Shown here: positions 3,167 to 56,296 of the stretch, piece after piece | How positions within the stretch are numbered: the first letter of the stretch is position 1 | How the letters are laid out: each line of letters begins with the position of its first letter | From: an uncultured archaeon | GTDB lineage: Archaea > Aenigmatarchaeota > Aenigmatarchaeia > QMZP01 > QMZT01 | DNA: 63,018 nt | Reading direction: 5' to 3' | NCBI GenBank assembly: GCA_964347025.1 | Contig: CAYFWU010000003.1 | Location: 8,834-71,851 of the forward strand | The notes under the pieces: generated by a model | What the model was told of the DNA's origin: nothing | The model's database searches: none | What the model saw: only the letters and a program-made list of their open reading frames with translations | Program-made: the position numbers and the translations under genes

Positions 3167-3199
3167 ACAACCACCCAACCTTCAAGACATTGATATTAT

Positions 3200-3469
3200 T
3201 TATTCGTTTGATAAAGCCTCAGCAAGCCTCTTTACGTTCCTTTCTTGCTCTTTCAGTTTATCCTCAAATTCTGAAATTTTGGAATCGATCTCATTTAACT
3301 TGGAGCTGAATTTAAACTCCCATTTCGAGTCGTCAACCTTTCCGATTTCTGGTACAAACATACTATTTGATTTTGTTTTCAGTTTATATTTAATTTTATA
3401 AATTTGATATAATAAAAAGCAAATTATAACAATCATCAAAAATATTACCAAAACCATTATCTCTAACAT
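3200..3469 (-). CDS. Small membrane-anchored coiled-coil protein (89 aa)
   Basis: ATG start. N-terminal hydrophobic helix (MLEIMVLVIFLMIVIICFLLYQIY) followed by a K/E-rich helical tail (SKISEFEDKLKEQERNVKRLAEAL). Sits 33 nt after MinD and 21 nt before the next gene on the same strand. Confidence 0.6.
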   Translation of the reverse strand: MLEIMVLVIFLMIVIICFLLYQIYKIKYKLKTKSNSMFVPEIGKVDDSKWEFKFSSKLNEIDSKISEFEDKLKEQERNVKRLAEALSNE

Positions 3470-3502
3470 AAGTATTATTTTGATTTTATTATTGAAATAT
3501 GT

Positions 3503-4279: not shown

Positions 4280-4324
4280 TCGTTTTCACTCTTTATTTTT
4301 ATTAATTTGTAATTAAATACCTTC

Positions 4325-4987
4325 CTACCATTTTAGCGTACACAATATTTTCGACAGTTCATTCTCATTTTTTATGACCATGGGGAAATCTGTTATCTTT
4401 CCCAATTGTGAATCCAGCTGGTACATATAGTTCAAAACATCCCTTTCGCACGATAGCGAAATGATGGTTGAAATCATCCTTGAGACAATGTCAGCCTTGT
4501 ATTTCTTGAAAAATATTGTCATGTTGGAAAACAATATATACATGAAAACATCCGTGAATATGTTCGACCCGTATCTGCCGACGAAGTCCTTATCACCCCT
4601 GTAGAGCAGTTTCAGATTCTTTAGGGAAAAGAGAACAGGATGATACTTTTCCATGAATTTCTGGATGATACTCCACTTCGCAACCAGCAGTGAATTGGGA
4701 GTCCAGAATTCCTCCTGAAGCTCTCCTTTGTATCTACCCTTTACGTAACCAGGTATCCATCCGAAGAGGGGCTTCAGCCTTTTACCTTCTTTAATTATGT
4801 AATTTTCCTTTATCATTTGTCTGAAAAGGGGTTCACCGAGACCTGATTCTATGTGATAGAGATAGTTGGTTTTCACACCCCATTCCGTTTGTATTTTGAA
4901 AAGGGACGTCCCGTTCTTATCGCTTGCGGCATTTAACCAGATAAGCCAAAAGTTCTTGTAATCCGTTAGCTTCTTTTTCTTGACCAT
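4325..4987 (-). CDS. Hypothetical protein (220 aa), no family recognised
   Basis: ATG-initiated ORF, co-directional with the cluster, preceded by a 132-nt AT-rich spacer (4988-5119). The N-terminal part could be helix-turn-helix-like, but I cannot support that. Confidence 0.6.
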   Translation of the reverse strand: MVKKKKLTDYKNFWLIWLNAASDKNGTSLFKIQTEWGVKTNYLYHIESGLGEPLFRQMIKENYIIKEGKRLKPLFGWIPGYVKGRYKGELQEEFWTPNSLLVAKWSIIQKFMEKYHPVLFSLKNLKLLYRGDKDFVGRYGSNIFTDVFMYILFSNMTIFFKKYKADIVSRMISTIISLSCERDVLNYMYQLDSQLGKITDFPMVIKNENELSKILCTLKW

Positions 4988-5119
4988 ATTTCTACAATTA
5001 TACTATAATCACATCCGGTTTCAGGGCGTTTCCTCTTCAAGTGAACCTTAACTGTTTATTGATGTGACATTTTATTATTAGAATTTTTTATATAAATATA
5101 ATAGTATAAACATACAAAT

Positions 5120-8100: not shown

Positions 8101-11100
8101 TCGTTCCATGCGTGACATTGGCTGTCAGATTATCCTCTGGTATTTGAAGAATAATGTTTGATTCGACAGTTATATTAAGCAGTGTGTAGTTCACGCTTTT
8201 ACCCACCTCCGGATTTACCCATTCAACACTGACGTTCACGGAATAATTCCCCGGAAGCGTTCCATTTGAAACAGTTATCAAGAAATACCTTACACAGGAA
8301 TCCCCTGCCTGGACATTCCCACAAGATTCTAAGGAAGAATTAGAGGTTATGTTGCCGGGTAGGCCCAAAGTTATGTTAGAGCTGAATGCGACCCCGGTCT
8401 CTATGTTTGTCGCATTCACTAATATAGGGAAGCTCTGGCTTACGTACCACGTTATGTTTTCTGCTGTGTAGTTGGTGGGGTCGATAAAAATACTCATGTT
8501 GGTTCCCGCGACCGCCACCTCCAGGGTTATGTTTTTCCATCCATCGTTACCGCTGGTTATGTTCAGAGTCCCGTTGTAAGTACCAGGCAAGGTCTCATTG
8601 GAGACAGTCAGATTTATTTGTATCTCCTTCAGTTCGCCTGCCCCCATAAAAGAAACGTTGGGCGGTAGGAGTTCGAAAGTGAAGTTATTATCGAAACCTG
8701 AGACATTGAATGTGATGTTCTGTAGAGGAGCGTTACCGCTCGAATTTATCGTGAAGTTCCCTATGTTCTTCTCCTTTTCTTTCGCGACAATGCTGGATAT
8801 CTTGTTGTCGGTTATTGGAACTATATCAAGAATGGAGTTCGGAAGAACTGTTACGTTTACAGATGTCGTATTTATCTTATATGAATAGTCTGCGTTCCTC
8901 CATTCGACACTTACGTTGAATGTGTAGTTACCTGGAGGGGTTCCGTTCAAAACAATTATTGAGAAATATCTCTCGCACGATTTGCCTATAAGAATATCAC
9001 CGCAACTTTCTATCGTTGTGTTCGCTGTTATGTTTGGAGGCAGACCCAACGTTATGTTCGCGTAGTAGGCAGAACCGTTTTCCAGGTTTGTTGCATTCGC
9101 CGCTATGGGGAGACTTTGATTACGATACCACGTTATGTTATCATAGGTCAGGTTGTCGGGTATAGAAACTATGCTCAGATTTGTTGTATAGCCTTCGACG
9201 GTGAACTCCTCAAAATCAAAACCACTGTTGTTATTTCTTGTCGCGTTGCAGTTCAGCGTGTATGTCTTGTACTGGGATGGAGCGTTGAACTGGATGAAAT
9301 AGCTTCCGTTGTTGTAATCGGTTATGTTATCCTGACTAACCTCTGTTGAATCGTATGTGCAGTTTATGGTTGCATTAGGTACCCATACATCCTCCCTGTA
9401 ATTTTTTACCTCGAGCGTAACATTGACTATTCTGTCAGGGAACCCTGTTTTGTTTTTGATTGATGTTATGTTGATGAAGTATTCATCAGTAACGTTGAAT
9501 GCGAAAAAGCTCGTGTTCAGAAGATACCATGTATCGTTGTAAACCCATAGCGTGATGTTCCATAGGCCAACTGAAGCGTTATCAAGGAGATAGTAGCTGT
9601 TGTTGAAAAGTTTATCCCCATCTTCATCGTAAAGGGTCATGTTTATATCATCGCTAGCGCCCGCAGTCCCCATGTCCAGGGTCGCATTAATTCTTTTCGA
9701 AAGGTTATAGTAATCGATGGTCACATTGGCCTTTATAATAAAAGTTTCGTTCCTGTTGAATACGGTCACGTTAACGTCCGAGATGTTATGCGCTTTAACT
9801 TCGGTAACGACCTGCCAGGCTTCCAGGACATCTTTCGTCAGAATAACGTTGCTGAGAAGCCCGTATTTTAGATTCATTATCTGATTCTCATCTGCAGCAG
9901 TCCCGTTAAACTGCATGTAAGAAACCTGTCTTATGCTTCCATTCGCTGTTATGTTTGTTGCATTCAATGTTATACCTATCCTTCCGGATTTGTCAACATC
10001 GTTATAGGCAAAAAAGTTCGATGTTCCGCTTTCGTTTATGTTTATTATCCCTGCTGACCAAGATCCCTGCTCTTCACCGGCCCATGCCCATGACCCCGGA
10101 TCCGTTGTATTCGACATGTTAGGATACGTATAAGGCGGGTCGTTGAACGTATCGTTGAAGGTTGTGTTCACATTTACTCCGGGAGCGGATGAGTATGCCG
10201 ACTCTCGGGTTATGTTATAGGTTTCGTTGTTCTCATATATCTGCTCTATCTTAACAAAAAAACTGTTTGAATAGAATACGTATCTCTTAGTCATGAACCC
10301 TTCGTTGGTTTTGTTGTCGGGCAGACCCCATAAGGTTTCTTTGCCCTGCTGTTCGACAACTATCCTTACGGGACCAATGTGCTTGAAGGTGGCATTGTCC
10401 CTGAAATCGAATCCGAAGTTCTGCGTTCCGTTAGAATAGTTCAGATATTCTGCTGTCCTTCCCTGCGAATCCTCCTTGAGAATCTCGTTTGTCGTCCCCA
10501 GATCAATTACATGATAGATGCCCGATGTATTCTCAGCTCGTTCGGTGTCAACAAACCATGCCATTATTGAGTTGTTTACATTGAACTCATCTATGCTGCC
10601 TGCATAGCTGTATACAAGATCACTAGTGTAGTTTGGTTTTTCCTTGTTTCCATTTTCAGTTATATCGAAGTAAACGTAATAATATCTCATGGTGTTTTTG
10701 GGATTTGTCCCGTTCAGCAAGAATGAAACAACACCGACAGCGTTAGAGGTTGCATTGTAATCATCGTATTTATCGAACTGACTCTTCACCTCCCAGAGTA
10801 CGGAACCTGTTGAATTGTATTCAATAACACGGGTGGAATTCTCATCAAAGGTTCCTGTGATGTTCATTTCACTCAGAATCTCTGTAAAGTTCACTTCATA
10901 CTCAACGGGCCAGTCTATTCGGTCTGTCTTGTTGTTGGGGCTGTAAAATTCACTGGTGTTCAAATCAATCCTGACCCTATAACGCCAGACTTCACTCCAC
11001 CATTCATCATCATAGTTCTGTGATGAGGTGTTCAAAACCCCAAGGCCTAAAGCAAACAGAACTATACAAGCCAAAATGAAAATTTTGTAACGAATTTTAT

Positions 11101-11104
11101 TCAC
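5120..11104 (-). CDS. Large (1,994 aa) type-I surface protein: signal peptide, N-X-S/T-rich beta-sandwich (CARDB/NEW3-like) domains, Pro-rich linker, C-terminal TM helix, cytoplasmic tail with SHOCT-like motif
   Basis: GTG start at 11104 overlaps the upstream stop by 8 nt (GTGAATAA). N-terminal signal-like MNKIRYKIFILACIVLFALGLGVL. Pro-rich PPEPPVPPGEAPPPPPAPPEE (~6056-6125). TM FLPIWLIIVLIILIAVIVILLFFV (~5376-5450) followed by KRVKG. Tail ends ...LLEREFKDGLISEKAYENLKKRNEEKL. Confidence 0.9.
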   Translation of the reverse strand: MNKIRYKIFILACIVLFALGLGVLNTSSQNYDDEWWSEVWRYRVRIDLNTSEFYSPNNKTDRIDWPVEYEVNFTEILSEMNITGTFDENSTRVIEYNSTGSVLWEVKSQFDKYDDYNATSNAVGVVSFLLNGTNPKNTMRYYYVYFDITENGNKEKPNYTSDLVYSYAGSIDEFNVNNSIMAWFVDTERAENTSGIYHVIDLGTTNEILKEDSQGRTAEYLNYSNGTQNFGFDFRDNATFKHIGPVRIVVEQQGKETLWGLPDNKTNEGFMTKRYVFYSNSFFVKIEQIYENNETYNITRESAYSSAPGVNVNTTFNDTFNDPPYTYPNMSNTTDPGSWAWAGEEQGSWSAGIININESGTSNFFAYNDVDKSGRIGITLNATNITANGSIRQVSYMQFNGTAADENQIMNLKYGLLSNVILTKDVLEAWQVVTEVKAHNISDVNVTVFNRNETFIIKANVTIDYYNLSKRINATLDMGTAGASDDINMTLYDEDGDKLFNNSYYLLDNASVGLWNITLWVYNDTWYLLNTSFFAFNVTDEYFINITSIKNKTGFPDRIVNVTLEVKNYREDVWVPNATINCTYDSTEVSQDNITDYNNGSYFIQFNAPSQYKTYTLNCNATRNNNSGFDFEEFTVEGYTTNLSIVSIPDNLTYDNITWYRNQSLPIAANATNLENGSAYYANITLGLPPNITANTTIESCGDILIGKSCERYFSIIVLNGTPPGNYTFNVSVEWRNADYSYKINTTSVNVTVLPNSILDIVPITDNKISSIVAKEKEKNIGNFTINSSGNAPLQNITFNVSGFDNNFTFELLPPNVSFMGAGELKEIQINLTVSNETLPGTYNGTLNITSGNDGWKNITLEVAVAGTNMSIFIDPTNYTAENITWYVSQSFPILVNATNIETGVAFSSNITLGLPGNITSNSSLESCGNVQAGDSCVRYFLITVSNGTLPGNYSVNVSVEWVNPEVGKSVNYTLLNITVESNIILQIPEDNLTANVTHGTNVNFDNLTLNSSGNDKVVNLTLEVIGLSDFNFTFVPLQFNPPNITNMSAGEVQIVIVNVSIPAGYNPGIYSGTLNITTLNAGWKNLSIEIGVPTSRTWTITPDPPYCERPMSPELGHVCPNNITIDNTGNVQLDFNITPYSSQSSPVNYTWTNETSFTINKLESHRFAVLYNVTNAPVQFHRTNYTINATQAGSSPDFVILQIVLNPYVKPVVEIGIYPNATEQNGTLRIFANVTDLSSLNPIQNASINITGPDGTNYSAQMDPFGQTGNLYTYDIYFPYDADHGLWGNTSLKGVYNISIISFDIQGKNGTNSSNFTIYKKLMINLGTFRQSGIYYQGERGAVNYSVEDFLGSPIGDTNVTFSIRDPLQNLIIPPDPSTIHTTLSNGRIEIPPEFEIIDDAVLGNYTIIANSSYYESSVGKMLYENSTYQFEVKEESEITARVAIPDPSLIGQSMPMSVSVLANGVPSEPDSIDLKVYYTGSIYGLQLVTRPWGQLNKSDFTETSPGFYNYLTEILDENTTQTGTYVAVLEVMLGGKPGWDMEVFRISAGGPYDVSINLLEGQAYQNDYIDFEIYIENRGEVSHTDVKVEYWVSGQNQTWSYQYDFVNVPALSNRTLVKNLYITPTQPLGTYYVNALVTYDPAQPTASANASFLVAERGVGPPEPPVPPGEAPPPPPAPPEEKVPKIEITKYLQEIGIETGTTKYITVEVENTGGLGLRNVTLRVIGLPTPWTEITPKIVDYLSPGNSTSFNMKLSMPSIAEPKEYFGTLVAEGVAYNNKTSDEKMFKIVVFTSREDLVRWEIERLEKALRDFELDVKEAKDVGKDVSEVEPLIDEIKEKLSEAKDYLNKKMYDDALSAVYVGWNLLERAKYLLSKATFVQPFVTFLPIWLIIVLIILIAVIVILLFFVKRVKGSVESIFKVQLPKMKPTTVAVEKIQERENIAKEIASVKRVINLLEREFKDGLISEKAYENLKKRNEEKLASLEKRVAEVK
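7825..9187 (-). repeat. Tandem duplication of a two-domain unit of about 225 aa inside the 1,994-aa gene (copies ~8511-9187 and ~7825-8510)
   Basis: Protein-level alignment by eye. Start of each copy: TNLSIVSIPDNLTYDNITWYRNQSLPIAANATNLENGSAYYANITLGLPPNITANTTIESCGD...GTYNGTLNITSGNDGWKNITLEVAVAG versus TNMSIFIDPTNYTAENITWYVSQSFPILVNATNIETGVAFSSNITLGLPGNITSNSSLESCGN...GIYSGTLNITTLNAGWKNLSIEIGVP. Confidence 0.8.
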
Positions 11105-12650
11105 CCTTACCAGACAAAATCATTTTTTTGGTTCTTTCGTACGCTTCCTTGCTTATGAATCCCTTCTTGAAGGTGTCTTCAAGATCTTTAAGCAACGCTT
11201 CCTTCCTTTTCTTCTTTACTTCCGGTGACTTTGGAGGGAGAGGTTCTATCTTAGGCTTTTCCTCCGCTTTGGTTCCTGTCTTCGGTTCCTCAGCTTTCGC
11301 CTCCGGTGCAGCTGCAGGAGCAGACGGTGCAGCCTCGGCCTCTTTAATCTTAATTTCGATTTCATTCAGCTTATCGAGGTTGGCCTGCTTGGCCTTTTCA
11401 AATTCCTCCTTGGACATTCTCTTGTTTTTGTATTCATCCTCGAGTGTTTTTATGAACATCTTTATTTCCTCTTTCTGTATTTGCAATTCATTGACGACAT
11501 CCTTTCCGGCTTCTTCCGCTCCACCAGCAGGTTTGAAGGTCTGCCTGAATGCCTCGAGATCGTCCCTTGTTATGAATTTTGAGAGTTTCGTATTCATGTC
11601 ATCAACGCTTCTCATAAGTTCGTTAACAAGATCCTCCATGCGATCCTGCTTTGTTCTGTAGAGCAAAAACTCCTCCATCCTTTCGCTCAGTTCAGCATAA
11701 ATTGATTGAACCCTGTCAGCGGATTTTTCAAGGTTGTTCTTCATGGTATCCATGTCCTGAAGATTTTTAGCAACCTTCTTGCTACTGTTTATAACACTTT
11801 CCAAGCTCCCTATGTTGACCATAACATTCTTCAGCCTGTTGATGGTCTCATTCAGGGCATCTATAACCCTTCCCATCCTTTCTATCTTCATTCCCTGATT
11901 CGACATTTCTCTGTCCCTCTTTTTCATCTCCATAACAATCTTTTCAGGATCAACCTGTGAAACAGAATCCATGATTTTTCCTATCTTGACCTCCTCCTCC
12001 TTGAGGGAGGCCTCCCTCTGGTATATGATGGACCTCAGTTCACCCATGCTTTCCGTTACCCTCTGAACCTTCTCATCAACCATCTTTCTCCCTTCCTTTA
12101 TGGTCTCAACAACAGCCTTGAGCTTTTCAACATCAATCTCGAATTTCTCAACCCTTGCTCTAACATCGGTTACGTCCTTGCTGCTCTCCTCAGCCTTTGC
12201 CGCAGCCACCACATCCTTGATCTTGCCTGTTATTTTTGTCTCAAAATCTTCCATGAGTTTTTGAAACTTCTTCTCTTCCTTCGGTTTTTTTGGTGGCTTC
12301 TTCTCTTCCTTCACAACCATAACCGGTGCTGCAGGGGGAGCTACAGCAGGAGTTGGTGGGGGAGCGGCAGGCTTGGGCTTTTCTTTAACACCCTTTGCCT
12401 TAAGCTTTTCAATCTTCTTGTTTATCTCAGCCAACCTTTCCTCATTCTTTTTCTTAACATGCTGGTAATCTTCTTCCATGATAGAGGCTTCGGAGTAGGC
12501 ATCTTCCAGAGAAGTAAGCAAGGTCTCTATTTCCTCCTTCTGGTGAAGAAGATGTTCGAGACTCTCTTTATCTCCTGCTTCAGGAGTTTTCTTTTTGATA
12601 CCTTTGGTTTTAGAAATTCCTTTACCCCCAACTTTAGTCTTCCCAACCAT
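11097..12650 (-). CDS. Cytoplasmic coiled-coil protein (517 aa) with three SHOCT-like motifs and P/A-rich linkers
   Basis: ATG at 12650, 59 nt after the giant gene's stop. No TM. Motifs: LEDAYSEASIMEEDYQHVKKKNEERL (N-terminal), LEDEYKNKRMSKEEFEKAKQANLDKL (middle), LEDTFKKGFISKEAYERTKKMIL (C-terminal). Linkers: PKPAAPPPTPAVAPPAAP and AAPSAPAAAPEAKAEEP. Confidence 0.85.
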   Translation of the reverse strand: MVGKTKVGGKGISKTKGIKKKTPEAGDKESLEHLLHQKEEIETLLTSLEDAYSEASIMEEDYQHVKKKNEERLAEINKKIEKLKAKGVKEKPKPAAPPPTPAVAPPAAPVMVVKEEKKPPKKPKEEKKFQKLMEDFETKITGKIKDVVAAAKAEESSKDVTDVRARVEKFEIDVEKLKAVVETIKEGRKMVDEKVQRVTESMGELRSIIYQREASLKEEEVKIGKIMDSVSQVDPEKIVMEMKKRDREMSNQGMKIERMGRVIDALNETINRLKNVMVNIGSLESVINSSKKVAKNLQDMDTMKNNLEKSADRVQSIYAELSERMEEFLLYRTKQDRMEDLVNELMRSVDDMNTKLSKFITRDDLEAFRQTFKPAGGAEEAGKDVVNELQIQKEEIKMFIKTLEDEYKNKRMSKEEFEKAKQANLDKLNEIEIKIKEAEAAPSAPAAAPEAKAEEPKTGTKAEEKPKIEPLPPKSPEVKKKRKEALLKDLEDTFKKGFISKEAYERTKKMILSGKGE

Positions 12651-12709: not shown

Positions 12710-15700
12710 CTATTTCTTCATCCTTGCCTTGAGCGAATCCACGTAACTCTCAGCCATGGTGAACATACCCTGCTTCATCTTATCCTTCGCCAGGTTCAAT
12801 TCGATCTCCAGATCACCTGTGTCCACCTTCCTCTTCTTCATCGCCTCTATCTCTTTATCAATCTCCTCTATCTTCTTGTTCACCTCTACGTACTTGTCGA
12901 TCTCCTTGTCCGAGAGCCTTCCCGTATCGTGAATAAGTGGACGGAAGGATATGAAGTATGGTTTACCTTCGTTGTAGGCCGGGTTCTGAACGAGGGCTGT
13001 TCCTGTCACAAGCTTGACAACCTTCGAAGCGTAATCAGTTCCGTACTTTGTCTTAACCCTGCCTATATCCCCTTCGTACTTCGTCCTCAGCTGTATCTCT
13101 GTCGCTATGTTCGCCCTTATCGCTCCCCTGAAGTCCATAAGGACCTGGGAGATCATGAACACTCCTATTCCCCACTTACGGAACTCACGGCAAGCCCTTT
13201 CTAAGGCAACATAACCGCCCTTACCTCCATACTTCGGAAGCAGCCTGTGGACCTCATCGTATACCAACAGCAATTTTATCTCCCTTTCCTCTGGAAGCGC
13301 AGCCTTGAAAACAGAGCTAACGGTCTTCCTGACGAAGTGATCTATCTGGCCTGTTTCCAACCTGTTCATAACGAATACCGTTATTTCGCCAGGTTTCCTG
13401 TACTTCTGGATGTCCACCTCCATATCAGGATCGGTAACAAGAATGATATTGGTCTTGAATGCCGTTGCGTCCTCTGGTTTAAGGCCGAACTGTGAGTAAA
13501 GATTGATCATCCTCTTGTCTCTGCATGACTTCATGAACCCTGTCCACTGCGCGGTCGGATCGAAAACTATGACAGGAACCTTCCTCTTTAACATCTCCTC
13601 TGCAACTATCATTGCCGAAACAGATTTACCTGCTCCGGTCGCTCCCGCCGCCAACGAATGCATCATTAACGCCTTGGTATCCATGTACGCCTTCACATCG
13701 GTCTCTGCTATCTTACCCACGAGAACTGTGTCAGGTCCGGCCCTCGGAAGCTTCTTGAAGTCTATCGGGAATATGTACCTCCTCTTTGCCCTCCTTCTCA
13801 CCATCCAGGTAGCATAGAGCTTTCTTCCGAAATAGAAACCTGGTATGAGAAGGAAGATCACCACATATGTTAACCAGTGAAGGAAAACTGCTCTAAGTAA
13901 AATCAGAGGAGCCGGTAAAAGGATAATATCAAAGGAATCAACCGCATACGCCGACTTCCTGCCGTCCCAGTATGTGACATTCAGTTCAACAACGTACCTG
14001 TCCTGTGGCGTACCTTGCGGAATGGGAATTGATTTCGTGAATGTCTTGATGTTCTCTATTGCCAGGGTTTCCGAATTCTTTACTATGAGATTCTCTGTTT
14101 CCAAACCCTTCACTTCGTAAGTAACAATTATGTCATCTATTTCTGCCGTTGGTCCCATGTTTAAAAGCGTGACTTCGAATTTAAGGTTACCTCCAGGTTC
14201 AACGGTCTTTGTTAAGACATTAACATTTACATCAAGCAAGGGTTCTACAGGTATCTCGACCTTTATGGTAACGGGCGTTACATGCGTGATGTTTCGGTCC
14301 CTAACATTCGAAACAATATCACCTGTGTATATGCCAGGCTGTGTCGTCGGCAAAGCGTAAAGCTTGACCTTCATAACACCCGTTGATTTTCCTCGAACTG
14401 TGAATACTGGTTTTTCAATCTGGACGAGCTCCCAGGCATTTCCTGTAACGCTTGTTTCGACCGTGATTGAACTCCCAAGGTTGTTGAGTATGTCTATCGA
14501 ATGAATTTCATGTTCCCCTGGTCTCAGCGTGACGAATATCAGGGTTGATTTAATTTCGACGGGGATCGCAGGAACTCCAGGCACTCCAGGCACACCAGGA
14601 GCCCCCACTCCTACTCCAGGTCCAACTCCAGGTGGCGCTGGTGGAGTTGGCGGTGCGGGTGGGCAATCCGTCGAACATACTGCTGTTGATTCACCGGTTA
14701 CAGTTGAACAATTTCCGTCACCACATATGTATTCAGCAAGGACGTAAGCTCCTGAAATGCTGCTTGTATTTATGCTTATGGTGGAATCGTTCAGGTTTAT
14801 AGAGCTTGGCAATCTTGTCCATGTGATATCCTCATTCGAAACGCAACCAACTCCTATCCTTGTCCAGATACTGCAGTGATAAACTCCCAGGTTACTCAGC
14901 GTGAATCCTGAAAGTTGTGAATAATCCATTGTCAGCGTCCCCATACTGGAGTTCAACACGTTGGTTATGGATATTCCCCTCAAAGCCGAACTACTAACCC
15001 AGATAGGCTCTATTTCACCAAATGTCACAGGATCAATAAGGTTAACCAACAGTGGCGTATTGATAAGATTCATAGAGTCGTTCCAGAAGTATACGTCTAT
15101 GTCGAAATTCCTGGCATCAACAGTTTGGTTATAGTAGCCAGTTCCATTGGTTGTGATGTTCGCATAGGATATGTTTGTTCCCACTTCCCACAGACTGAAC
15201 TTGACCTGTATGGGTGGTCTCGATATTTTCTCTTCGTCCCTAGCCTCTCCTGAGAAGAACACACCTGCAAACGCTTCAAACGTTGTTGTAGTTGAATTAC
15301 AGTTACCTGATTTATCGCAGGCAGTTACATTTAACGTGTGTATACCAGCAACTGTTACGTTAGTGAAGTTGTATTCAAAGAGGAAGTAGTCCCCAATTTC
15401 TGAAATCAAGGTCATGTTGAACAGTTCGGTGTAATTCGTTCTGGAAATTCGAACGGTTGCATTCTGAACAACACCTGCATCTGTCACGTTCGCCCGTATG
15501 TTCGCGGTTGAGAACATTGGAACCCTTGCTGCAACTATTATCTCTATGCTTGGTGGTTCGGAATCCGTGTATATGATAGCGTCTTGTTCGCCGTCAAAGT
15601 ATAGCAAGCTCTTGTTGGTGTAGTTCGCTGTTACGTTGATATCATAACTCTTTGCTATCGCGAAATCAGGAGCAGTGAAGTTCATCAGCCACAGGCTTTC

Positions 15701-18700
15701 GTTGGATGAGTAGGTTATGTTTGTGAGGTTCATTTCCATTGATAGGGTCTCGTTATACAATGTTAAATTCCATATCACCAGGCTCGTATTGTCCACAGGG
15801 CTCGTCCCGTATGTAAGGTTAACCTTTACCTGTATGGTGTCGTTCCAGGTTATGTTTATAACAGGGTTTGTATTCGTGGGTTCGATGATATCAACAAAGT
15901 AGGGGTGAACAGTTAGGTTAACAAAGGTCTGTTCTGTCTGCGTCCCTGATGCGGCTGTATAATTGGTTGTCTTTACATTGCCCGTGTAATAGTTCCACTG
16001 GTAGATAACAGGAGCTGTGTAATTCAGGCCTATGTACTCGTATTCACCGATATCCATCTGGAGCTGGGTCACATTCTTTTGAACCACACCAAGTATCCCG
16101 CCTTCTATTCCTGTATCGAGGACAAGGTAGATGTTACCCGTGTTATGGACCGTTATGGTTTCAAGAGGACCTGTGGTTCCCTGTATAACCTCTTTCGATA
16201 TGTTTGCAGGCGTTTGCGTCCAGGTAAGGTTTACTGGAACTATCACACTTACGTTGACAACATCGTACGTCCCCAGCCCGCTCGCATTGATCATTCCGTA
16301 ATACTTGTCGCTCGGGAAGTTGCTTTGAACGTATATCTCGATGGTCACGTATTGCGTGTCGTTTATGGGCATTGATGCTATGCTGTCAGGATAGTAGGTC
16401 ACGGTGAAGTTATCGCATACCGCCCCGGACCCTGGTGTGCAGTTGAATGATATGCTGTCGACTTGATAGTTACCTATTGACCTCAGGGTTATCGAGATAT
16501 TTTCGGATGAATCTGGTTGTATAACGATATCGCTTACGTTATCCTGAACTATGTCCAGTACAGGGTTCTGAGTGACGTTTACCTGTATGTAGGTCTGGTT
16601 GAAACCGGGGGAACCGTTAATATCTATCCAATCCGACGTTAGGTTCACATAATAAACTCCTGGTGAGGTCGAGTTCGGGATGTTTATGATGGGTTGTCCG
16701 TAACTCGATTCGTTCCTTAGTATGGTCCCGAACGCGAACGTATCCTGGGAAGCTGACCAGCTAACGGGTGTGGTTATAGAAAGGTTTACATAGTACGCTC
16801 TTGCATGGCCCGTGTTGTTCATGTCTATTCTGACCGGGATGTCCTCCCCCGCGTAAATGGTTATGTCGGTGATTTCAATGCTCGTTACATTCGGATTTAT
16901 CTCCATCGTTGTTATTCCAGCAGCCAGAAGATCTCCGTAAAGATAACACCCAGATTTGCTTCGGGTATCGTTTGCGCATATATGAAGCGTATGGATCCCC
17001 GAGATGTTGGAGGAGTAGTTCACGCTGTAATAGGAATCGTTCTTAACCATGTAATCCTTGAATGGGCTCTCAACCTTGGCATAGTAATGGAGCCATGAAT
17101 AGTATGCAGAACTTATCTGCGATCCGTTGACATCATGAACGGTCAGGTTTATGTTCTGGTCTCCAGGAAGCGTGAAACTCGTTCCGTTCTGGACGGCATC
17201 AGCCGTGAAGTTCGCTCCTGGGGTTACGGACTGGTTTATCACGATCAAGTTTTCGTTCACGGTGATGTTTATGTAAACTGTCGAGGCCTCATCGTTGTTG
17301 AATGTTACGTTGAAGTATTGCATCTCTCCCTCGAAATTAACATATTCCGTGTGATTGTATCCTGATTCGTTACCTACTGACTGGCGGATCAATTTCGAGA
17401 TACTGGTGTAGTTTATATCTCCGGGTCTCATTACCCGTATCCAGGCCTTGTCAACCGCGAAATTATCCGTTATTTTCGCAGAGATTGAAACGTTCTCGAA
17501 GATTATTTCGAATATGTCCGGCGTTACGCTAACATCCTCTATTACCGGAGGAATATCCGTTACGTTCAGCCAGAAGTCCACGTAATCCTCGTCAGGATCC
17601 GCAGGCAACGTTGTATTTATTACCCATAGCTTTACGTAGAACAATCCCTCGGTGGCTCCACCACCAACACTGTAGTTAACATAGATATTTTGTTTGTCTC
17701 CCTTCTCTACATCCAGGGCCGGAGGCGAATAAACAACAAGTCCTGTTCCATTCCCCTGTAATGCTATGTCAAACACCATCTTAACGTTACCTATGTTGGT
17801 TACGTTTATCACCCCAACCTCACCATCCATGTTCGGAGGTGTTAAGAAGGTTCCGAATGTCCTCGAAACAGGTTCTATCAGCCAGCTTGAGTTCAGGGGA
17901 ATGCTTATATTCATCAAGGCCAGGTCCTCTCCGCCAAGGACGGCTGCTGCCTTTATGTATGCCCAGTAGTCACCCGGTTCCTGTCCACTTGGGATGTCCA
18001 TGTAAATATCCACTGTTAAGTTTTCGGTGGGTCTCAAAATACCCTGGGTTTCAGGTATGAAAGTCACGTTGCATTCAGGACATTTCGTTTGCAGATTGCT
18101 CCCTATACCAGAGGTTAAACTCATTGTTATATCTCTTACCCAGTCGTTTCCTATTGAAAGGACGGTTACGTTTCCTATGTAAAAATTCTGGCTGTCGTGC
18201 GGGACATTGTCGTTGATTAATTGCGATTCAAAGATGTCCAGTATAGGATTTGAGGTGACCTTGATATCTGTCGTATTAGTTGTCCAGTTCCACGCCTGAT
18301 CAGGATCCATCCATGATGCATTCCCTATCAAATGGATAAGTTGAGGTGTTGTCGCTTCTGGGACGGTAATCTCGAAATGCCAGACGCATTTCGTAGTGTT
18401 AGACATGTTTCCGCAGTCATGGTAATGCAGTGTCTGATTGAATATTATGATTCCTCCGGCATCATCATACGCCGAGATGTTTACGAAGTACGCGCGGGGC
18501 GGACCAAGGTTGGTGAAGTTTATGTACATGTCTGTCGTGTAGTTAAGAGTCTGGGTTATATTGGAGGCTATGATTTCAGGGGTTTGCTCCATTGCATAGT
18601 TTATCTTACCCCACACCGTGAAATTACCTGCGTACGAATAATTCGCATTATACTCAGGACTCTCATCCCGAGCGTAAACTGTCACGTCATATACGCCCCC

Positions 18701-21700
18701 TATGGGCGGGTAGTAGGAAACCCTGTACGTATCGTTGTATATATTCGACATGGTCTCATTGGTATACGTACCATTGGGAAGCTGTATGTAGGCCCATACA
18801 AGGTCAACTTGGTAATCATCCGTAACGTTCGCCGTTATATTGGTGTAGTTAGCAACAGCCTCTATTCCGTCTGTCGGGTATATAGAGGTCCCAATTATTT
18901 GGGGCGGTTCCGTATCCTTTATGTGGATCAGGGCAATGGCCTCGTCTATACGTGCGCTGTAAAGTTGCGTGGCGTTATCCGTTATGTTGCATTTGAAGGT
19001 CATGTCTCCCTTATCTTCCGGATACCATGTAAAGAAAACATATCCAGTCGAGTTCGTGCTCTTGCTGCCGTTGTAAACGTATCCGCTGCCGTTGTCGTAA
19101 TAGAAGTTAACCTGGTAATCGCTTATGCCTGCTCCCGATTCCCCATCGACCACCCTGCAGGTGTTGTTGAATGGGAAGGGATAGGAAACGTTGGATTCGT
19201 CCGGAGGACTTATCCATACAACATCGGCCAGACCTGATATCTCTATAATCACGCTATCCTGTCCCATGTCATAGCTCGGTTTAGTGGCTTTAGCCGTGAT
19301 ATTCCGGAAGCCTGTTTGCTGACTACCAAGGTATATATCAGTGGTTTCGCCTTCCGGAGCTATCTCTATGCCCGATTCATTGTACCATCTAACCTCCAGG
19401 TTACCTCCAGTTATGTTGTTGTTATTTTCATCCCAGACATCGGCATGTGATCCACTTATCGTATCATCCTTGTCCCATTGACTTCCGTTCAGAGGATAGG
19501 TAATGTTGGCGTAGAGGGCCCCCTTGATAGTCAAAGTGGTTGTGTTTGTTTCGGAATCTTCAGAACCAAGTTTTGTTGCATTGATGTAAATGTTATGGAC
19601 GTCCGCTTGTATATCATCAGGCGGGTTGTATAATATCTCTGTGTTACCACTGGAATCTGTTGTGTTGTAACCTATGTAGCCATAGGTTGAGTTGTAGAAG
19701 CTGACATTCGCTCCTTCGGCACTCCCAAGCAACGCTTCTTTTACGTGGACGCTTATGGTTGAGTTGTAATAATATGATCTGTTAATTGCAAATGTGTCGT
19801 TCCTGTAGATTATCGTTGGGTCTCTGTTTATAACATCTATGAAGAGCTGCCTCTTTATCCTTATCATCGTATATCTTTCCGGGACTGATGTATTGTAGTA
19901 AAGTGTTTTATCATCCGTTATGTTACACGTTATATTATACCAGCTAGCGTTCTCTGGCGAGCCTCCTCCAGTCACCCATGTCCATCTAGCCCTTCCGTTA
20001 AGGGTTGCATTCGAAAGATCGTAGTCCTGATAGGTTCCGTTCTTGTAGAAAGTCACGTTGTATCCCTCTATTGGTTGTCCTGTGTTCGCATCCGTTACAT
20101 AGCAGTCCACCTGAATTGTAGAACCTGCCTGATATTCGGTTCCGGATACCGGTTGTATATCGCTTATCTCGCTCCATCCGTATACATAGACAGTCGAATA
20201 GTTTGTATTTCCGTCGTAATTGGTTCTTGTCGCATTCACGTATGTAAGGTTTGGACCAAGCGGATAATTGTAGGGAACACTCCAGTTTGTGTCGTAACCT
20301 GAAGTGAGGTTAACCCAGCTACCGTTGTACCAGACAACAGAAGAATCATTCACAAAGTTCCCACACTCGTCCTTCACAGTTGCATTGAAATAAGTCGTTG
20401 TGTTCCTGTTGATAATGGTTCCATTTACGGGATTTACAATGGTTATGTTTAGCTGCCCTATTATGGTAAAGCTTCTGTTGGAAGGACTTGTGAAGTTTTC
20501 ATATTCGTAGCACGTATCATTCGTTCCTCCGAACCAATATTGTGTCCCCACGGTTGACCCACATCCGGGATCAGAGAAGTTCTCGCAGTAACCATTGGAT
20601 GATATACAGGAATACGTACGGCTGAAGTTCGTCCCGTTCTCTGTTACCCACATCCATCCCTTCGCACCATCAGGCCATCTGGGGTAGTCATCATCCCTTA
20701 TCCTGAACCTCATCATTTCCTCTTCGTTCCCGAACCTTCTGATGGACGAATTGCTGAATATGTAGGAAACGGTCACATTGTCCTCTGTTAACGTGAAGTT
20801 TTTCACTTCCGTTTCATCAGTGTAGTTGAACGGATCAGTAACGTTGAACTTGTAGTAGTTCAATCTCCCTGGTGTCTGATTCGAATCCGAACAAGCGAAT
20901 CTTTCATAGATGTACACATCCGTTCCTGCAGAACTCTTGGTTTCGTTGTGTACAAGAGTCCAGCTAACATTATCAAAACTCTTCCAAAGCGAGATGTTAT
21001 CCTCGTTCCAGTCTGCATCTCCGAAATAAACATGGAAGGTATACTGCCTCCCCCAGCCATCCAGCACAGGAGTTACCCACGGATTTGATAGATACGGGGC
21101 ATTACCAATGTTGAATGCATCTACTTCTGTCGTCTCATTCAAAACGTAGTAACTCCTGTATACCCTCATTATTATGTTCCAGTCACCCTTTTTCTGTCCA
21201 CTGCTATCCCAGCTGCAGTTGTACCACCCCCCTCCTTCCTGCCAGTTCCCTGTACAGTAACGTATGGTCGCACCGTTCTGCAGCCTGTATTCCTGAGGAC
21301 TTCCTCCGTGGTATCCTAACGTTGCTGAATCCACGCCATAACCCAAATTATCTGAACAATCGTCCTCAAGATATCCGCTCACGTTTACGAGATCACCCTG
21401 CAGGTACCCTACCCTACCCACGGGATAGTATACGTAAGGTCTGAGGTCTGAATGTACTTCTACTTCGTATATTGAAGAGTTTACATCGAAGTAACAGGAG
21501 TCGTTGAATATTCCACCTGTCCAGTTGTGTGTGCCTATCGTGTAATTACATTCACCAACTGGCGGAGCATCAAGGAAATAATAGTTCGTATAACCGCTGC
21601 TGTTCACACTTGATATGCTTCCCGGATCCCAGGAATTCGGATCAGATGCATTCGTGGTTACCCAGAACATCGTATTACCAGAGCCTAACGTTTGATTTGT

Positions 21701-56269: not shown

Positions 56270-56289
56270 AGAAAACTGGACCCGCACCC

Positions 56290-56296
56290 TTTATAA
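56290..56296 (-). promoter_or_regulatory. TATA box (TTATAAA on the minus strand) for the giant gene
   Basis: Its centre lies ~26 nt upstream of the ATG at 56269, the archaeal TATA-to-TSS spacing. This implies a leaderless mRNA. Confidence 0.5.

What the first reader, a model, noticed from the sequence alone, without database searches (positions are those of the whole stretch)
12713..13800. HerA/FtsK-superfamily ATPase fused to the cytoplasmic end of the giant surface protein
Seen: Walker A LAAGATGAGKS (13622-13645), Walker B LLLVYDEVH (13247-13273), and the segment REFRKWGIGVFMISQVLMDF typical of HerA/DUF87-type ATPases, directly after the TM helix. Established: FtsK-HerA/VirB4-type ATPases are hexameric pumps that translocate DNA or substrates through membranes; the crenarchaeal Ced DNA-import system uses a membrane-anchored HerA/VirB4-like ATPase (CedB). 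Inference: a translocase motor covalently tied to a ~14,000-aa adhesin-like fibre suggests contact-dependent DNA or protein transfer, or mechanical actuation of the fibre. If the ATPase hexamerises, the fibre would be presented as a six-fold bundle.
Basis: partly seen in the sequence, partly recalled or inferred. Interest (0 to 1): 0.88.

Follow-up and report, generated by a model that had tools for sequence, protein, structure and literature searches.

The report
Giant archaeal adhesin with HerA motor
The last ~370 residues of a 14,525-residue membrane-anchored surface protein of a DPANN (Aenigmatarchaeota-like) archaeon are an intact HerA/FtsK-type ring ATPase, but this fusion is the already published 'SPEARE' architecture, so it is an unusually large new member of a known family whose function is still unsolved.

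Summary
ORF 12710..56287 (-) is one uninterrupted 14,525-codon frame. Its last 373 residues follow a single TM helix and carry Walker A, Walker B, a sensor-1 SQ and an R/K finger pair. They pass Pfam DUF87, and a confident AlphaFold model matches HerA hexamers best, then TcpA and FtsK; no VirB4 appears in the top 50.

The fusion is not an artefact. About 66 of 80 related genome loci have the ATPase frame running stop-free to the edge of the fetched DNA, at least 3,390 codons upstream in 41 of them.

It is not new either. The C-terminal 450 residues are 38% identical (E 4e-104) to the cytoplasmic end of the Ca. Nanohaloarchaeum antarcticus SPEARE protein. That region was called a restriction enzyme in 2019 and re-read as a VirB4/TraG-like ATPase in 2023. 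Function remains untested.

This analysis adds three things:
- HerA is the nearest structural relative.
- The N-terminus carries a cytoplasmic wHTH, so both ends are inside the cell.
- A conserved downstream module follows: coiled-coil partner, ~2,000-aa second surface protein, MinD/ParA.

Verdict: new member of a known kind, moderate interest.

The parts
12710..56287 (-). Giant ORF, 14,525 codons from GTG 56287 (stop codon 12710-12712). The probable real start is ATG 56269 (M7).
   Evidence: A TATA-like TTATAAA at 56296..56290 lies ~25 nt upstream of ATG 56269; this start assignment is inference.
56063..56269 (-). N-terminal cytoplasmic winged-helix-turn-helix-like domain (residues 7 to ~75)
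   Evidence: Weak Pfam HTH_11 0.0029 and HTH_IclR 0.0064. Weak PDB wHTH/Z-alpha hits. The same wHTH+TM+ectodomain start occurs in P0121 (82% identity) and P0122 (72%, named HTH domain protein, Aenigmarchaeota). No N-glycosylation sequons and 18.8% K+R.
55940..55999 (-). TM1 / signal-anchor helix (residues 97-116)
   Evidence: Hydropathy peak 2.76. K/R-rich before it, N-x-S/T-rich after it.
13892..55939 (-). Ectodomain, ~14,000 residues: 922 N-x-S/T sequons, 229 Cys, scattered NPCBM_assoc/CARDB-like and Ig-like domains, ~1,000-residue segmental duplications
13829..13891 (-). TM2, the membrane anchor immediately before the ATPase (residues 14133-14153)
   Evidence: Hydropathy 2.17. Followed by RKLYATWMVRRRAKRR. 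Aligned in all family members.
12917..13735 (-). HerA-like RecA-fold ATPase core (residues ~14185-14457)
   Evidence: Pfam DUF87 and HerA_C. AF2 pLDDT 93.6. Foldseek top hits HerA 4d2i and 9x1l.
13622..13645 (-). Walker A GATGAGKS (Lys at 13625-13627)
   Evidence: G63, G66, G68 and K69 invariant in 78 sequences.
13247..13273 (-). Walker B LLLVYDEVH (Asp-Glu at 13253-13258)
   Evidence: D192/E193 invariant. Aligned to E426/E427 of HerA 8xau.
13175..13180 (-). Arg-Lys pair (R14370/K14371), the candidate trans-acting arginine finger
   Evidence: Invariant R218/K219. Aligned to R455/K456 of 8xau, described as the trans 'R finger' in PMC11291478.
13145..13150 (-). Sensor-1 Ser-Gln at the end of the strand GIGVFMISQ
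   Evidence: S228/Q229 invariant. Aligned to the SQ of HerA chains.
12713..12910 (-). C-terminal three-helix / coiled-coil tail
   Evidence: AF2 helices 308-333, 339-353 and 357-372. Conserved in the family and in the SPEARE protein.
11097..12650 (-). 517-aa cytoplasmic coiled-coil protein, the conserved downstream partner
   Evidence: A homologue lies on the same strand within 3 kb downstream in 59 of 67 loci. All-helical, with three helix-loop-helix hairpins joined by disordered linkers. No Pfam family.
5120..11104 (-). 1,994-aa second surface protein: signal peptide, NPCBM_assoc domain, C-terminal TM helix, cytoplasmic helical tail
   Evidence: A homologue is hit in 73 of 82 loci, in some of them inside the giant's own ectodomain, and lies downstream of the ATPase in 37 of 50 loci with at least 9 kb of flank.
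4325..4987 (-). 220-aa protein of unknown function, conserved in close relatives
   Evidence: 9 loci, 49-65% identity. No Pfam hit.
3503..4279 (-). MinD/ParA-type P-loop ATPase
   Evidence: Pfam ParA 9.7e-20, CbiA 7.7e-18. Present in 29 loci despite limited flanks.
620..3178 (-). 852-aa coiled-coil protein at the end of the module
   Evidence: Only generic coiled-coil Pfam hits. Its start is seen in 5 close loci at the edge of the flank.

Best explanation
Shown. This is a SPEARE-family protein of a DPANN archaeon close to Aenigmatarchaeota. It is one polypeptide that starts in the cytoplasm with a small wHTH domain and crosses the membrane. It displays about 14,000 residues of heavily N-glycosylatable, Ig/CARDB-containing ectodomain, then re-enters through a single TM helix. 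It ends in a catalytically intact HerA-type (FtsK-HerA superfamily) ATPase plus a helical tail.

Inferred mechanism. The ATPase domains assemble into a membrane-tethered ring, with the invariant R/K pair completing the neighbour's active site as in HerA. ATP hydrolysis in that ring drives a linear polymer through its centre at the place where the giant ectodomain holds a host cell. DNA is the most likely polymer, given the nearest relatives. That would make this a contact-site import or export motor for an organism that depends on its host.

The conserved coiled-coil partner, the second anchored surface protein and the MinD/ParA ATPase encoded downstream most likely scaffold and position the complex. 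Identity and architecture are about 0.95 certain. The translocation mechanism is about 0.35 certain. The figure given is for the statement as a whole.
For: Architecture: a continuous 14,525-codon ORF. There are two hydrophobic helices only, at residues 97-116 and 14133-14153. The ectodomain has 6.6 sequons per 100 aa and 5.3% K+R; both termini have 0 sequons and 18-19% K+R.

ATPase family: Pfam DUF87 38.8 bits (cut-off 23.2) and HerA_C 33.8 bits (cut-off 22). The AF2 model has pLDDT 93.6 and pTM 0.91. Foldseek ranks 1-26 are all HerA hexamers (4d2i 1.2e-13, 9x1l 1.6e-12), then the coupling protein TcpA 6o1w at rank 27 and FtsK 2ius at rank 32.

Intact catalytic set: K69, D192, E193, R218, K219, S228 and Q229 are invariant in 78 homologues. 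R218/K219 align with R455/K456 of 8xau, the trans-acting finger whose mutation drastically reduced ATPase activity (PMC11291478).

SPEARE membership: 38% identity over 450 aa, E 4e-104, to the C-terminus of the Nha. antarcticus SPEARE protein. The published domain order is the same: signal, Ig-rich ectodomain, TM, ATPase, coiled coil.

The fusion is conserved: about 66 of 80 genome loci have the ATPase frame open to the locus edge, at least 3,390 codons upstream in 41 of them. Representatives of up to 7,665 aa carry the domain at the C-terminus.

Module: a cc517 homologue lies downstream in 59 of 67 loci, including Nanohalo-, Undin- and Altiarchaeota. A surf1994 homologue lies downstream in 37 of 50 loci. 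MinD is present in 29 loci.

Precedent: the SPEARE protein is synthesised in culture (proteomics, PMC6642349). Membrane-anchored HerA-clade ATPases CedB and CedD are required for DNA import (PMC11868833).
Against: No experiment on any family member shows ATPase activity, oligomeric state or substrate.

One TM helix per subunit gives only six helices per ring. That is unlikely to form a DNA-sized pore, and no polytopic membrane protein is encoded in the conserved module.

No nuclease, NurA, relaxase, pilin or other DNA-handling gene is nearby.

FtsK-HerA relatives also move proteins (VirB4, T7SS EccC; own knowledge), so DNA is not implied by the fold.

Hamm et al. found the ectodomain and the TM-plus-cytoplasmic peptides in different gel size fractions. 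In L032 and L061 a single in-frame stop interrupts the giant reading frame; in L032 it lies at the ectodomain/TM-ATPase boundary. The covalent tie may therefore not always persist.
Confidence: 0.5

Rival explanations
1. Cytoplasmic organiser or anchor. The HerA-like ring translocates nothing across the membrane. Together with the coiled-coil partner, the tail of the second surface protein and MinD/ParA, it uses ATP to cluster, position or tension the giant adhesin and the envelope proteins. This would be an attachment-site or envelope-assembly scaffold, possibly riding on the nucleoid via ParA and the wHTH.
For: The synteny of ATPase, coiled-coil protein, second TM-anchored surface protein and MinD/ParA is tightly conserved across DPANN phyla.

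A post-hoc helix motif is shared by the cytoplasmic tails of the giant, of cc517 (two regex matches; three similar hairpins in the AF2 model) and of the 1,994-aa protein. It is absent from the 852-aa coiled coil, and about 0.002-0.02 matches are expected by shuffling.

No channel-forming or DNA-processing partner is in the module. Short paralogues with a single Ig-like ectodomain keep the same partners (L064, L072).
Against: Every characterised close structural relative (HerA, FtsK, TcpA) is a polymer translocase. The full catalytic and finger set is conserved as in processive motors. The shared motif was defined after seeing the sequences, and Pfam support is sub-threshold.
Confidence: 0.25
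2. Type IV secretion-like injector. The ATPase is a VirB4/TraG-type energiser, and the giant protein is a 'straw' through which effectors are pushed into the host (the proposal of Reva et al. 2023 for nanohaloarchaea).
For: The published reading for the orthologous nanohaloarchaeal proteins rests on a second VirB4/TraG-family ATPase encoded next door there (PMC10266531). Pfam T4SS-DNA_transf scores 23.0 bits against a cut-off of 20.1, and TraD/TraC NCBIfam models give weak hits.
Against: The T4SS-type hits cover only the P-loop region (residues 36-107). AAA_10 is below its cut-off (19.9 against 27.5). No CagE/VirB4 N-terminal domain was found. No VirB4 structure is among the top 50 fold matches, while HerA fills the first 26. 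No second VirB4-like ATPase, VirB6-like channel or pilin is in this window or in the conserved module. An Ig-domain chain is not a conduit.
Confidence: 0.15
3. Cytoplasmic type III restriction enzyme or helicase that degrades incoming DNA (the original SPEARE annotation, Hamm et al. 2019).
For: Pfam ResIII and DEAD give weak hits (E 0.0065 and 0.00099), and ResIII is precomputed on many family members.
Against: Both hits are below their gathering scores (16.8 against 22.5; 19.3 against 26) and are explained by the shared P-loop. There is no nuclease domain. The fold matches are HerA/FtsK, not SF2 helicases. Reva et al. reached the same conclusion.
Confidence: 0.02
4. Assembly or gene-calling artefact: a separate ATPase gene joined to the giant ORF by a sequencing error.
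For: In JGI locus L001 and in L005 the ATPase is called separately. L032 and L061 have an in-frame stop in the giant frame; in L032 it sits just before the TM-ATPase.
Against: L001 and L005 show homologous sequence jumping between frames, which indicates a noisy assembly or a pseudogene. About 66 of 80 independent loci have the uninterrupted fusion. The published complete nanohaloarchaeal genomes have it too.
Confidence: 0.01

Closest known systems
SPEARE proteins / giant membrane-anchored surface proteins of Nanohaloarchaeota (NAR1_1133 of Ca. Nanohaloarchaeum antarcticus, 5,998 aa; SVXNc_0300 of Ca. Nanohalococcus occultus, 9,409 aa; a 12,127-aa example in an EX4484-52 MAG)
   Same: The domain order is identical: N-terminal signal or anchor, huge adhesion-type ectodomain, one TM helix, conserved cytoplasmic P-loop ATPase, terminal coiled coil. 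There is direct homology of the last 450 residues (38% identity, E 4e-104). The lineage is DPANN. Hamm et al. already noted similar cytoplasmic regions in Aenigmarchaeota, Woesearchaeota, Micrarchaeota and Altiarchaeales.
   Different: At 14,525 aa it is longer than any SPEARE length found in the papers read here. Pfam finds no laminin-G, serine-protease or toxin-like domains. It has an N-terminal cytoplasmic wHTH not described for SPEARE. No neighbouring VirB4/TraG ATPase is present. Instead a coiled-coil partner, a 2,000-aa surface protein and MinD follow.
HerA (archaeal HerA-NurA DNA-end resection motor, PDB 4D2I and 9X1L; bacterial HerA of the SIR2-HerA and DUF4297-HerA defence systems, 8WIV and 8XAU)
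   Same: Best sequence and fold matches. Shared blocks are G-x-TG-x-GKS, hhhh-(D/E)E-x-H, RE-x-RK-x-G-h-G and SQ. The R/K finger is equivalent.
   Different: No HAS-barrel N-domain; a TM helix and ~60 residues take its place. TM-score is only ~0.55 and identity 12-17%. The NCBIfam HerA equivalogs score 15-30 bits against cut-offs of 800-970. There is no NurA, SIR2 or DUF4297 partner. It is membrane-tethered rather than soluble.
CedB/CedD ATPases of the crenarchaeal Ced DNA-import system
   Same: They are membrane-anchored HerA-clade ATPases acting at cell-cell contacts, and both are required for DNA import (PMC11868833). The top NCBIfam hit is CedD.
   Different: The score is 32.9 bits against a cut-off of 600 and covers only the Walker A region. 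There is no VirB4-like N-terminal domain. There are no CedA/CedE channel or Ced/Ups pilus genes. The phylum is different.
Membrane-anchored FtsK-type translocases and T4SS coupling proteins (FtsK/SpoIIIE, TcpA, TrwB/VirD4/TraD). T7SS EccC/EssC is added from own knowledge.
   Same: An N-terminal membrane anchor followed by a ring ATPase of the same superfamily. Fold matches to TcpA 6o1w (1.6e-9) and FtsK 2ius (5.6e-9). Weak Pfam hits to T4SS-DNA_transf, FtsK_SpoIIIE and TrwB.
   Different: Those proteins have 2-5 TM helices per subunit and little or no ectodomain. Here there is one helix and a 14,000-residue ectodomain. HerA scores better than any of them.

Membership tests
SPEARE proteins (DPANN giant surface proteins) | Conserved cytoplasmic C-terminal region homologous to that of the type protein NAR1_1133. 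The authors call this the most conserved region and used it for their tree. | tested here: met
   BLASTP of window 12713-14032(-) against the C-terminal 456 aa read from Fig. S18 of PMC6642349 (OCR text): 38% identity over 450 aa, E 4e-104.
SPEARE proteins (DPANN giant surface proteins) | Most of the length is extracytoplasmic, with a single TM helix near the C-terminus and a cytoplasmic C-terminal region | tested here: met
   Hydropathy. Sequon and charge asymmetry. Basic stretch after TM2.
SPEARE proteins (DPANN giant surface proteins) | Adhesion-type domains in the ectodomain (Ig-like and NPCBM_assoc; the type protein is itself annotated NPCBM-associated NEW3) | tested here: met
   NPCBM_assoc at 1.6e-5 and 1.1e-9; weak Big_1 and Big_7. 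Annotation of NAR1_1133 in Table S3.
SPEARE proteins (DPANN giant surface proteins) | [quoted passage not shown] | tested here: not met
   Pfam scan of all 14,525 residues found none; ResIII is sub-threshold. Reva et al. 2023 argue that these domains are not real in the type proteins either. I therefore do not treat this row as excluding membership.
SPEARE proteins (DPANN giant surface proteins) | Terminal coiled coil after the ATPase | tested here: met
   AF2 helices 308-372. This stretch is aligned.
FtsK-HerA superfamily / Pfam DUF87 (PF01935) | Profile match above the curated threshold | tested here: met
   DUF87 38.8 bits (cut-off 23.2); HerA_C 33.8 bits (cut-off 22).
FtsK-HerA superfamily / Pfam DUF87 (PF01935) | Walker A Lys, Walker B Asp-Glu, sensor-1 polar residue (Q) and a trans-acting Arg finger | tested here: met
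   All are invariant in 78 homologues. The positions were mapped on HerA 8xau and on the roles described in PMC11291478. The trans action itself is inferred.
FtsK-HerA superfamily / Pfam DUF87 (PF01935) | Hexameric ring with a central channel | not testable with these tools
   Only monomer prediction is available. Fold matches are to subunits of HerA and FtsK hexamers.
HerA proper (DSB-repair helicase, NCBIfam NF040937 / NF040819) | Equivalog score above the cut-off | tested here: not met
   30.3 bits against 800; 25.6 bits against 970.
HerA proper (DSB-repair helicase, NCBIfam NF040937 / NF040819) | N-terminal HAS-barrel domain | tested here: not met
   Only ~60 residues (a basic helix plus a beta-hairpin) lie between TM2 and Walker A.
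HerA proper (DSB-repair helicase, NCBIfam NF040937 / NF040819) | NurA nuclease (or Mre11/Rad50) gene neighbour | tested here: not met
   The neighbours are coiled-coil proteins, a surface protein and MinD.
VirB4 / T4SS ATPases and coupling proteins | VirB4 N-terminal domain (CagE_TrbE_VirB) or AAA_10 above threshold | tested here: not met
   No CagE hit; AAA_10 19.9 bits against 27.5. No VirB4 in the top 50 fold matches.
VirB4 / T4SS ATPases and coupling proteins | T4CP profile (T4SS-DNA_transf PF02534) | tested here: inconclusive
   23.0 bits against a cut-off of 20.1, but only residues 36-107 match profile positions 32-93 of 468, that is the P-loop region.
VirB4 / T4SS ATPases and coupling proteins | Other T4SS components encoded nearby | tested here: not met
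   None in the window or in the conserved downstream module.
Ced system ATPases (CedB/CedD) | NCBIfam CedD equivalog score; TM plus VirB4-like NTD plus ATPase; CedA-type channel partner | tested here: not met
   32.9 bits against 600. No NTD. No polytopic membrane protein in the module. The architecture of CedD is taken from PMC11868833.

The most novel reading that the evidence does not exclude
The giant adhesin-HerA motor, its coiled-coil partner, the second anchored surface protein and MinD/ParA may together form a DPANN-wide, previously undescribed cell-cell docking organelle. In this organelle a membrane-tethered HerA ring would import host DNA or another polymer. It would be an archaeal contact-dependent uptake machine, evolutionarily independent of T4SS, Ced and competence systems. 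The wHTH at the other cytoplasmic end could hand over or sense the DNA.
Probability: 0.2. Interest if true: 0.8.

Novelty: new member of a known kind. Interest (0 to 1): 0.42.

Why it matters
DPANN archaea live attached to hosts and lack much biosynthesis. How they dock and take what they need is an open question. SPEARE-type giants are the most conspicuous candidate genes, yet their cytoplasmic ATPase has never been assayed.

This window shows four things:
- The same fusion reaches 14.5 thousand residues in an Aenigmatarchaeota-like lineage.
- The ATPase has every residue an active ring motor needs.
- Its nearest structural relative is the DNA translocase HerA, rather than VirB4.
- It travels with a fixed set of partner genes in at least 59 genomes from several DPANN phyla.

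That gives concrete, small, soluble targets for biochemistry: the ~360-aa ATPase, the 517-aa partner and MinD. It does not change the picture of what kinds of systems exist.

Tried and rejected
1. The first homology search returned only proteins of 650 aa or less. Together with the separate 400-aa gene call in L001, this suggested that stand-alone short forms dominate. I rejected that reading: those are contig-end fragments, and L001 is frameshifted. The locus analysis and the exhaustive search show long fusions.

2. A whole-protein self-BLAST gave no off-diagonal hits. That was an artefact of the run; a chunked all-against-all comparison shows large internal duplications.

3. The restriction-enzyme/ResIII reading was rejected: the hits are sub-threshold P-loop matches only.

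4. Membership in VirB4, Ced and HerA proper was rejected on thresholds, on missing N-domains and on missing partners.

5. SHOCT, GvpG and CdvA as identities for the recurring tail hairpin: only sub-threshold hits (E 0.001-0.03), so this stays unresolved.

6. AlphaFold of the 517-aa partner gave helices without a globular fold (pTM 0.20). No fold search was run, because matches to such a model would be meaningless.

7. The literature search 'FtsK-HerA' + 'DPANN' found nothing. 'SPEARE' alone was swamped by unrelated names. 'SPEARE' + 'DPANN' found the relevant papers.

8. I looked in PMC11291478 for named DNA-contacting pore residues to map onto the window protein. The text found gives none.
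Full report
**The object.** The window carries one uninterrupted reading frame on the minus strand, 56287..12710, 14,525 codons. GATGAGKS is encoded at 13645..13622 and LLLVYDEVH at 13273..13247. REFRKWGIGVFMISQ follows, with the Arg-Lys at 13180..13175 and the Ser-Gln at 13150..13145. A hydrophobic helix (residues 14133-14153, nt 13891..13829) precedes the domain and is followed by a strongly basic stretch. The only quibbles are that the Walker A coordinates cover 8 of the 11 quoted residues, and that about 60 residues separate the helix from the P-loop.

**What the domain is.** Pfam places the last 373 residues in DUF87 'Helicase HerA, central domain' (38.8 bits, cut-off 23.2) and HerA_C (33.8 bits, cut-off 22). 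T4SS-DNA_transf is marginal. AAA_10, FtsK_SpoIIIE, DEAD and ResIII are sub-threshold. NCBIfam gives only weak partial hits, to CedD, HerA, TraD and TraC, all far below their cut-offs. Sequence search of the PDB finds only HerA chains plus FtsK at the margin.

An AlphaFold2 model built on 78 homologues is confident (pLDDT 93.6, pTM 0.91). Foldseek against the PDB returns HerA hexamer subunits in ranks 1-26: Sulfolobus 4D2I at 1.2e-13, Thermococcus HerA-NurA 9X1L, and SIR2-HerA and DUF4297-HerA complexes. The conjugation coupling protein TcpA follows at rank 27 and FtsK at rank 32. No VirB4 is in the top 50. TM-scores are about 0.5-0.58 and identities 11-18%. This is a distinct family of the FtsK-HerA superfamily whose nearest solved relatives are HerA, not a HerA orthologue. 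It lacks the HAS-barrel; the TM helix takes that place.

**Is the motor intact?** In the 78-sequence alignment these residues are invariant: the P-loop Gly and Lys (G63, G66, G68, K69), Walker B D192/E193, H195/R196, the block R215-E216-x-R218-K219-W220-G221, and S228/Q229. The HMMER alignment to DUF4297-HerA (8XAU) puts D192/E193 on E426/E427 and R218/K219 on R455/K456. The structure paper describes R455/K456 as reaching the neighbour's ATP in trans, 'reminiscent of the arginine finger', and mutating them together with Walker A drastically reduced ATPase activity (PMC11291478). Ring formation itself could not be tested, because only monomers can be predicted here.

**Topology.** Only two hydrophobic helices exist in 14,525 residues, at 97-116 and 14133-14153. 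The 14,000 residues between them have 922 N-x-S/T sequons (6.6 per 100 aa), 10% Asn, 5.3% Lys+Arg and 229 Cys. The 96 residues before the first helix and the 373 after the second have no sequons and 18-19% Lys+Arg. So both ends are cytoplasmic and the middle is outside.

The ectodomain is largely opaque to Pfam: a few NPCBM_assoc/CARDB-like domains and weak Ig-like hits. It has grown by ~1,000-residue segmental duplications, for example residues 4888-5998 against 7281-8388, up to 72% identical.

**The N-terminus.** Residues 7 to ~75 look like a winged helix-turn-helix (Pfam HTH_11 0.0029 and HTH_IclR 0.0064; weak Z-alpha/IclR/PadR PDB hits). The same wHTH-TM-sequon-rich start is found in two close relatives. 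P0121 is 82% identical. P0122 is 72% identical and annotated 'helix-turn-helix domain-containing protein, partial [Ca. Aenigmarchaeota]'. The wHTH also exists as a stand-alone 88-98-aa protein. A TTATAAA box at 56296..56290 lies ~25 nt upstream of ATG 56269, which fits a leaderless archaeal start at M7 (inference). Short family members have plain signal peptides instead, so the wHTH is a lineage-specific addition.

**Is the fusion real and general?** The first database search returned 349 homologues, all from DPANN archaea where named (Aenigm-, Nano-, Pace-, Woese-, Micrarchaeota), but none longer than 652 aa. In one JGI locus the ATPase was called as a separate 400-aa gene. Both impressions were misleading. 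That locus is riddled with frameshifts through recognisably homologous sequence, and the short hits are contig-end fragments.

For the best 80 I extended the ATPase frame upstream. In about 66 it runs without a stop to the edge of the fetched DNA, and in 41 of these that is at least 3,390 codons upstream. The exhaustive phmmer search of 1.84 billion cluster representatives finds 356 at E <= 1e-30, and nearly all carry the domain at or near the C-terminus of proteins up to 7,665 aa.

Genuine short forms also exist, 550-840 aa with one Ig-like ectodomain, sometimes in the same MAG as a giant one (L015+L072, L023+L064). In L032 a single in-frame stop separates the ectodomain from the TM-ATPase, and in L061 an in-frame stop interrupts the giant frame further upstream.

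The organism is closest to Aenigmatarchaeota MAGs: 74-85% ATPase identity and ~69% nucleotide identity over a few kb. The flanking archaeal FBP aldolase/phosphatase, TIM and HIT genes show that this is chromosomal.

**It is already known.** Hamm et al. 2019 (PMC6642349) named such proteins SPEARE. They are nanohaloarchaeal proteins of up to 8,553 aa that are mostly extracytoplasmic, have a TM helix near the C-terminus, and have a conserved intracellular region. The authors read that region as a type III restriction enzyme. They noted similar regions in Woese-, Aenigm-, Micrarchaeota and Altiarchaeales, and showed by proteomics that the protein is made.

Reva et al. [quoted passage not shown] They described a 9,409-aa example and proposed a T4SS-like injector. 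A 12,127-aa SPEARE with TM helices at both ends was reported from an EX4484-52 MAG (PMC8470020).

The supplement of Hamm et al. prints the type protein's sequence. Its last 456 residues align with window 12713-14032(-) at 38% identity over 450 aa, E 4e-104. The alignment spans the last Ig-like domain, the TM helix, the ATPase and the tail. Nanohaloarchaeota loci L028 and L075 are in the same family at 54-61% identity. The weak ResIII hits on the window protein and on many relatives explain the original mis-annotation. Membership in the SPEARE family is therefore tested and met. The acronym's protease, laminin-G and endonuclease domains are not found here, and their reality is disputed in the type proteins.

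**Gene context (apparently undescribed in the papers read).** Downstream on the same strand lie five genes:
- a 517-aa coiled-coil protein (11097..12650);
- a 1,994-aa second surface protein with a signal peptide, an NPCBM_assoc domain, a C-terminal TM helix and a helical cytoplasmic tail (5120..11104);
- a 220-aa unknown protein;
- a MinD/ParA ATPase (3503..4279);
- an 852-aa coiled-coil protein.

The order is identical in L003, L004, L005, L007, L008 and L081. A homologue of the 517-aa protein lies within 3 kb downstream on the same strand in 59 of 67 loci with enough flank, including Nanohalo-, Undin- and Altiarchaeota. The second surface protein follows in 37 of 50 loci, and MinD is present in 29.

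The 517-aa family has no Pfam domain and only 'hypothetical' names. Its AlphaFold model is all-helical, with three confident helix-loop-helix hairpins joined by disordered Pro/Ala/Lys linkers to a long central coiled coil.

A similar hairpin sequence ([ILM]S.[EK].[YFI][ED]...N..[LI]) occurs in the giant's own tail, in the tail of the 1,994-aa protein and in the 517-aa protein (two regex matches). It is absent from the 852-aa coiled coil, with 0.002-0.02 matches expected by shuffling. The pattern was defined post hoc, and Pfam support is sub-threshold (SHOCT_2, GvpG, CdvA). No nuclease, pilin, VirB4, VirB6-like or other polytopic membrane protein is in the module.

**How it most likely works.**

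Shown: an N-in/C-in giant glycoprotein-like adhesin whose C-terminus is an intact HerA-type ATPase, conserved as a fusion and embedded in a conserved module.

Inferred: the ATPase forms a ring under the membrane and couples ATP hydrolysis to movement of a linear polymer at the host contact. DNA is the favoured polymer, because the closest relatives (HerA, FtsK, TcpA) and the functional analogues CedB/CedD (PMC11868833) handle DNA. I give this about 0.35.

The main rival, at about 0.25, is that the ring moves nothing across the membrane and instead organises, positions or tensions the adhesin complex together with the coiled-coil partner and MinD/ParA. Favouring that rival: one TM helix per subunit cannot obviously make a DNA-sized pore, and no channel or DNA-processing gene accompanies it.

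The published T4SS-injector idea gets about 0.15. Here there is no second VirB4-like ATPase, no T4SS component, and a better match to HerA than to VirB4.

The restriction-enzyme and artefact readings are effectively excluded.

**Verdict.** The family assignment and topology are right. The functional inference is reasonable but untested, and the novelty was overestimated. This is a very large Aenigmatarchaeota-type member of the SPEARE family. At 14,525 aa it exceeds the 12,127-aa and 9,409-aa examples in the papers read.

The additions from this analysis are of moderate interest and give tractable experiments:
- HerA rather than VirB4 is the nearest structural relative.
- The R/K finger is invariant.
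- The N-terminus is a cytoplasmic wHTH.
- A partner module is conserved across DPANN.

None of these makes the object a new kind of system.

Noticed in passing
window 56063..56269 (-) and 55940..55999 (-): The giant protein begins with a cytoplasmic wHTH-like domain followed by a TM/signal-anchor helix. A putative DNA-binding domain and the HerA-like motor therefore sit at opposite ends of one polypeptide, on the same side of the membrane. The arrangement is conserved in two close relatives (P0121, P0122). The same wHTH exists as a stand-alone small protein (P0124, P0126).
   Followed up: partly
window 12713..12910, 5120..5290, 11097..12650 (all -): A short helix-loop-helix motif (LSDKEIDKYVEVNKKI, ISEKAYENLKKRNEEKL, IMEEDYQHVKKKNEERL, MSKEEFEKAKQANLDKL) recurs in the cytoplasmic tails of the giant protein, the 1,994-aa surface protein and the 517-aa coiled-coil protein. 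It may be a docking module. Pfam gives only sub-threshold SHOCT_2, GvpG and CdvA hits.
   Followed up: partly
window 620..12650 (-); loci L003-L008, L081, L057, L064, L072, L075, L076: A conserved module lies downstream of the ATPase: coiled-coil partner, ~2,000-aa TM-anchored surface protein, 220-aa unknown protein, MinD/ParA and an 852-aa coiled-coil protein. It is found across several DPANN phyla and next to short as well as giant forms.
   Followed up: yes
L032 8533-8535; L061 3017-3025; L001 6000-10000; L005 1-8050: In L032 a single in-frame stop separates the ectodomain ORF from the TM-ATPase ORF, and in L061 an in-frame stop interrupts the giant frame about 2,380 codons upstream of the ATPase. 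In L001 and L005 the giant gene is broken by many frameshifts. Whether these are sequencing errors, pseudogenes or real splits or read-through is open. Hamm et al. saw the two parts of SPEARE in different gel fractions.
   Followed up: partly
L015+L072 and L023+L064: The same MAG can carry one giant and one short (~730 aa) paralogue of the TM-ATPase protein. This raises the possibility of mixed rings.
   Followed up: no
window residues ~3050-8400 of the giant ORF (nt ~31,100..47,100): The ectodomain contains ~1,000-residue segmental duplications up to 72% identical (4888-5998 against 7281-8388, and 3050-3990). This points to recent expansion of the gene.
   Followed up: partly
window 60192..61541 (+): A further 449-aa predicted surface protein has a signal peptide, beta-rich domains and a TM helix followed by a basic stretch. 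It is unrelated in position to the module.
   Followed up: no
window 56413..56865 (+): The divergently transcribed 150-aa protein upstream of the giant gene has a coiled-coil N-half and a wHTH-like C-terminus. It could be a regulator of the giant gene. No homologue was found in the fetched loci.
   Followed up: no
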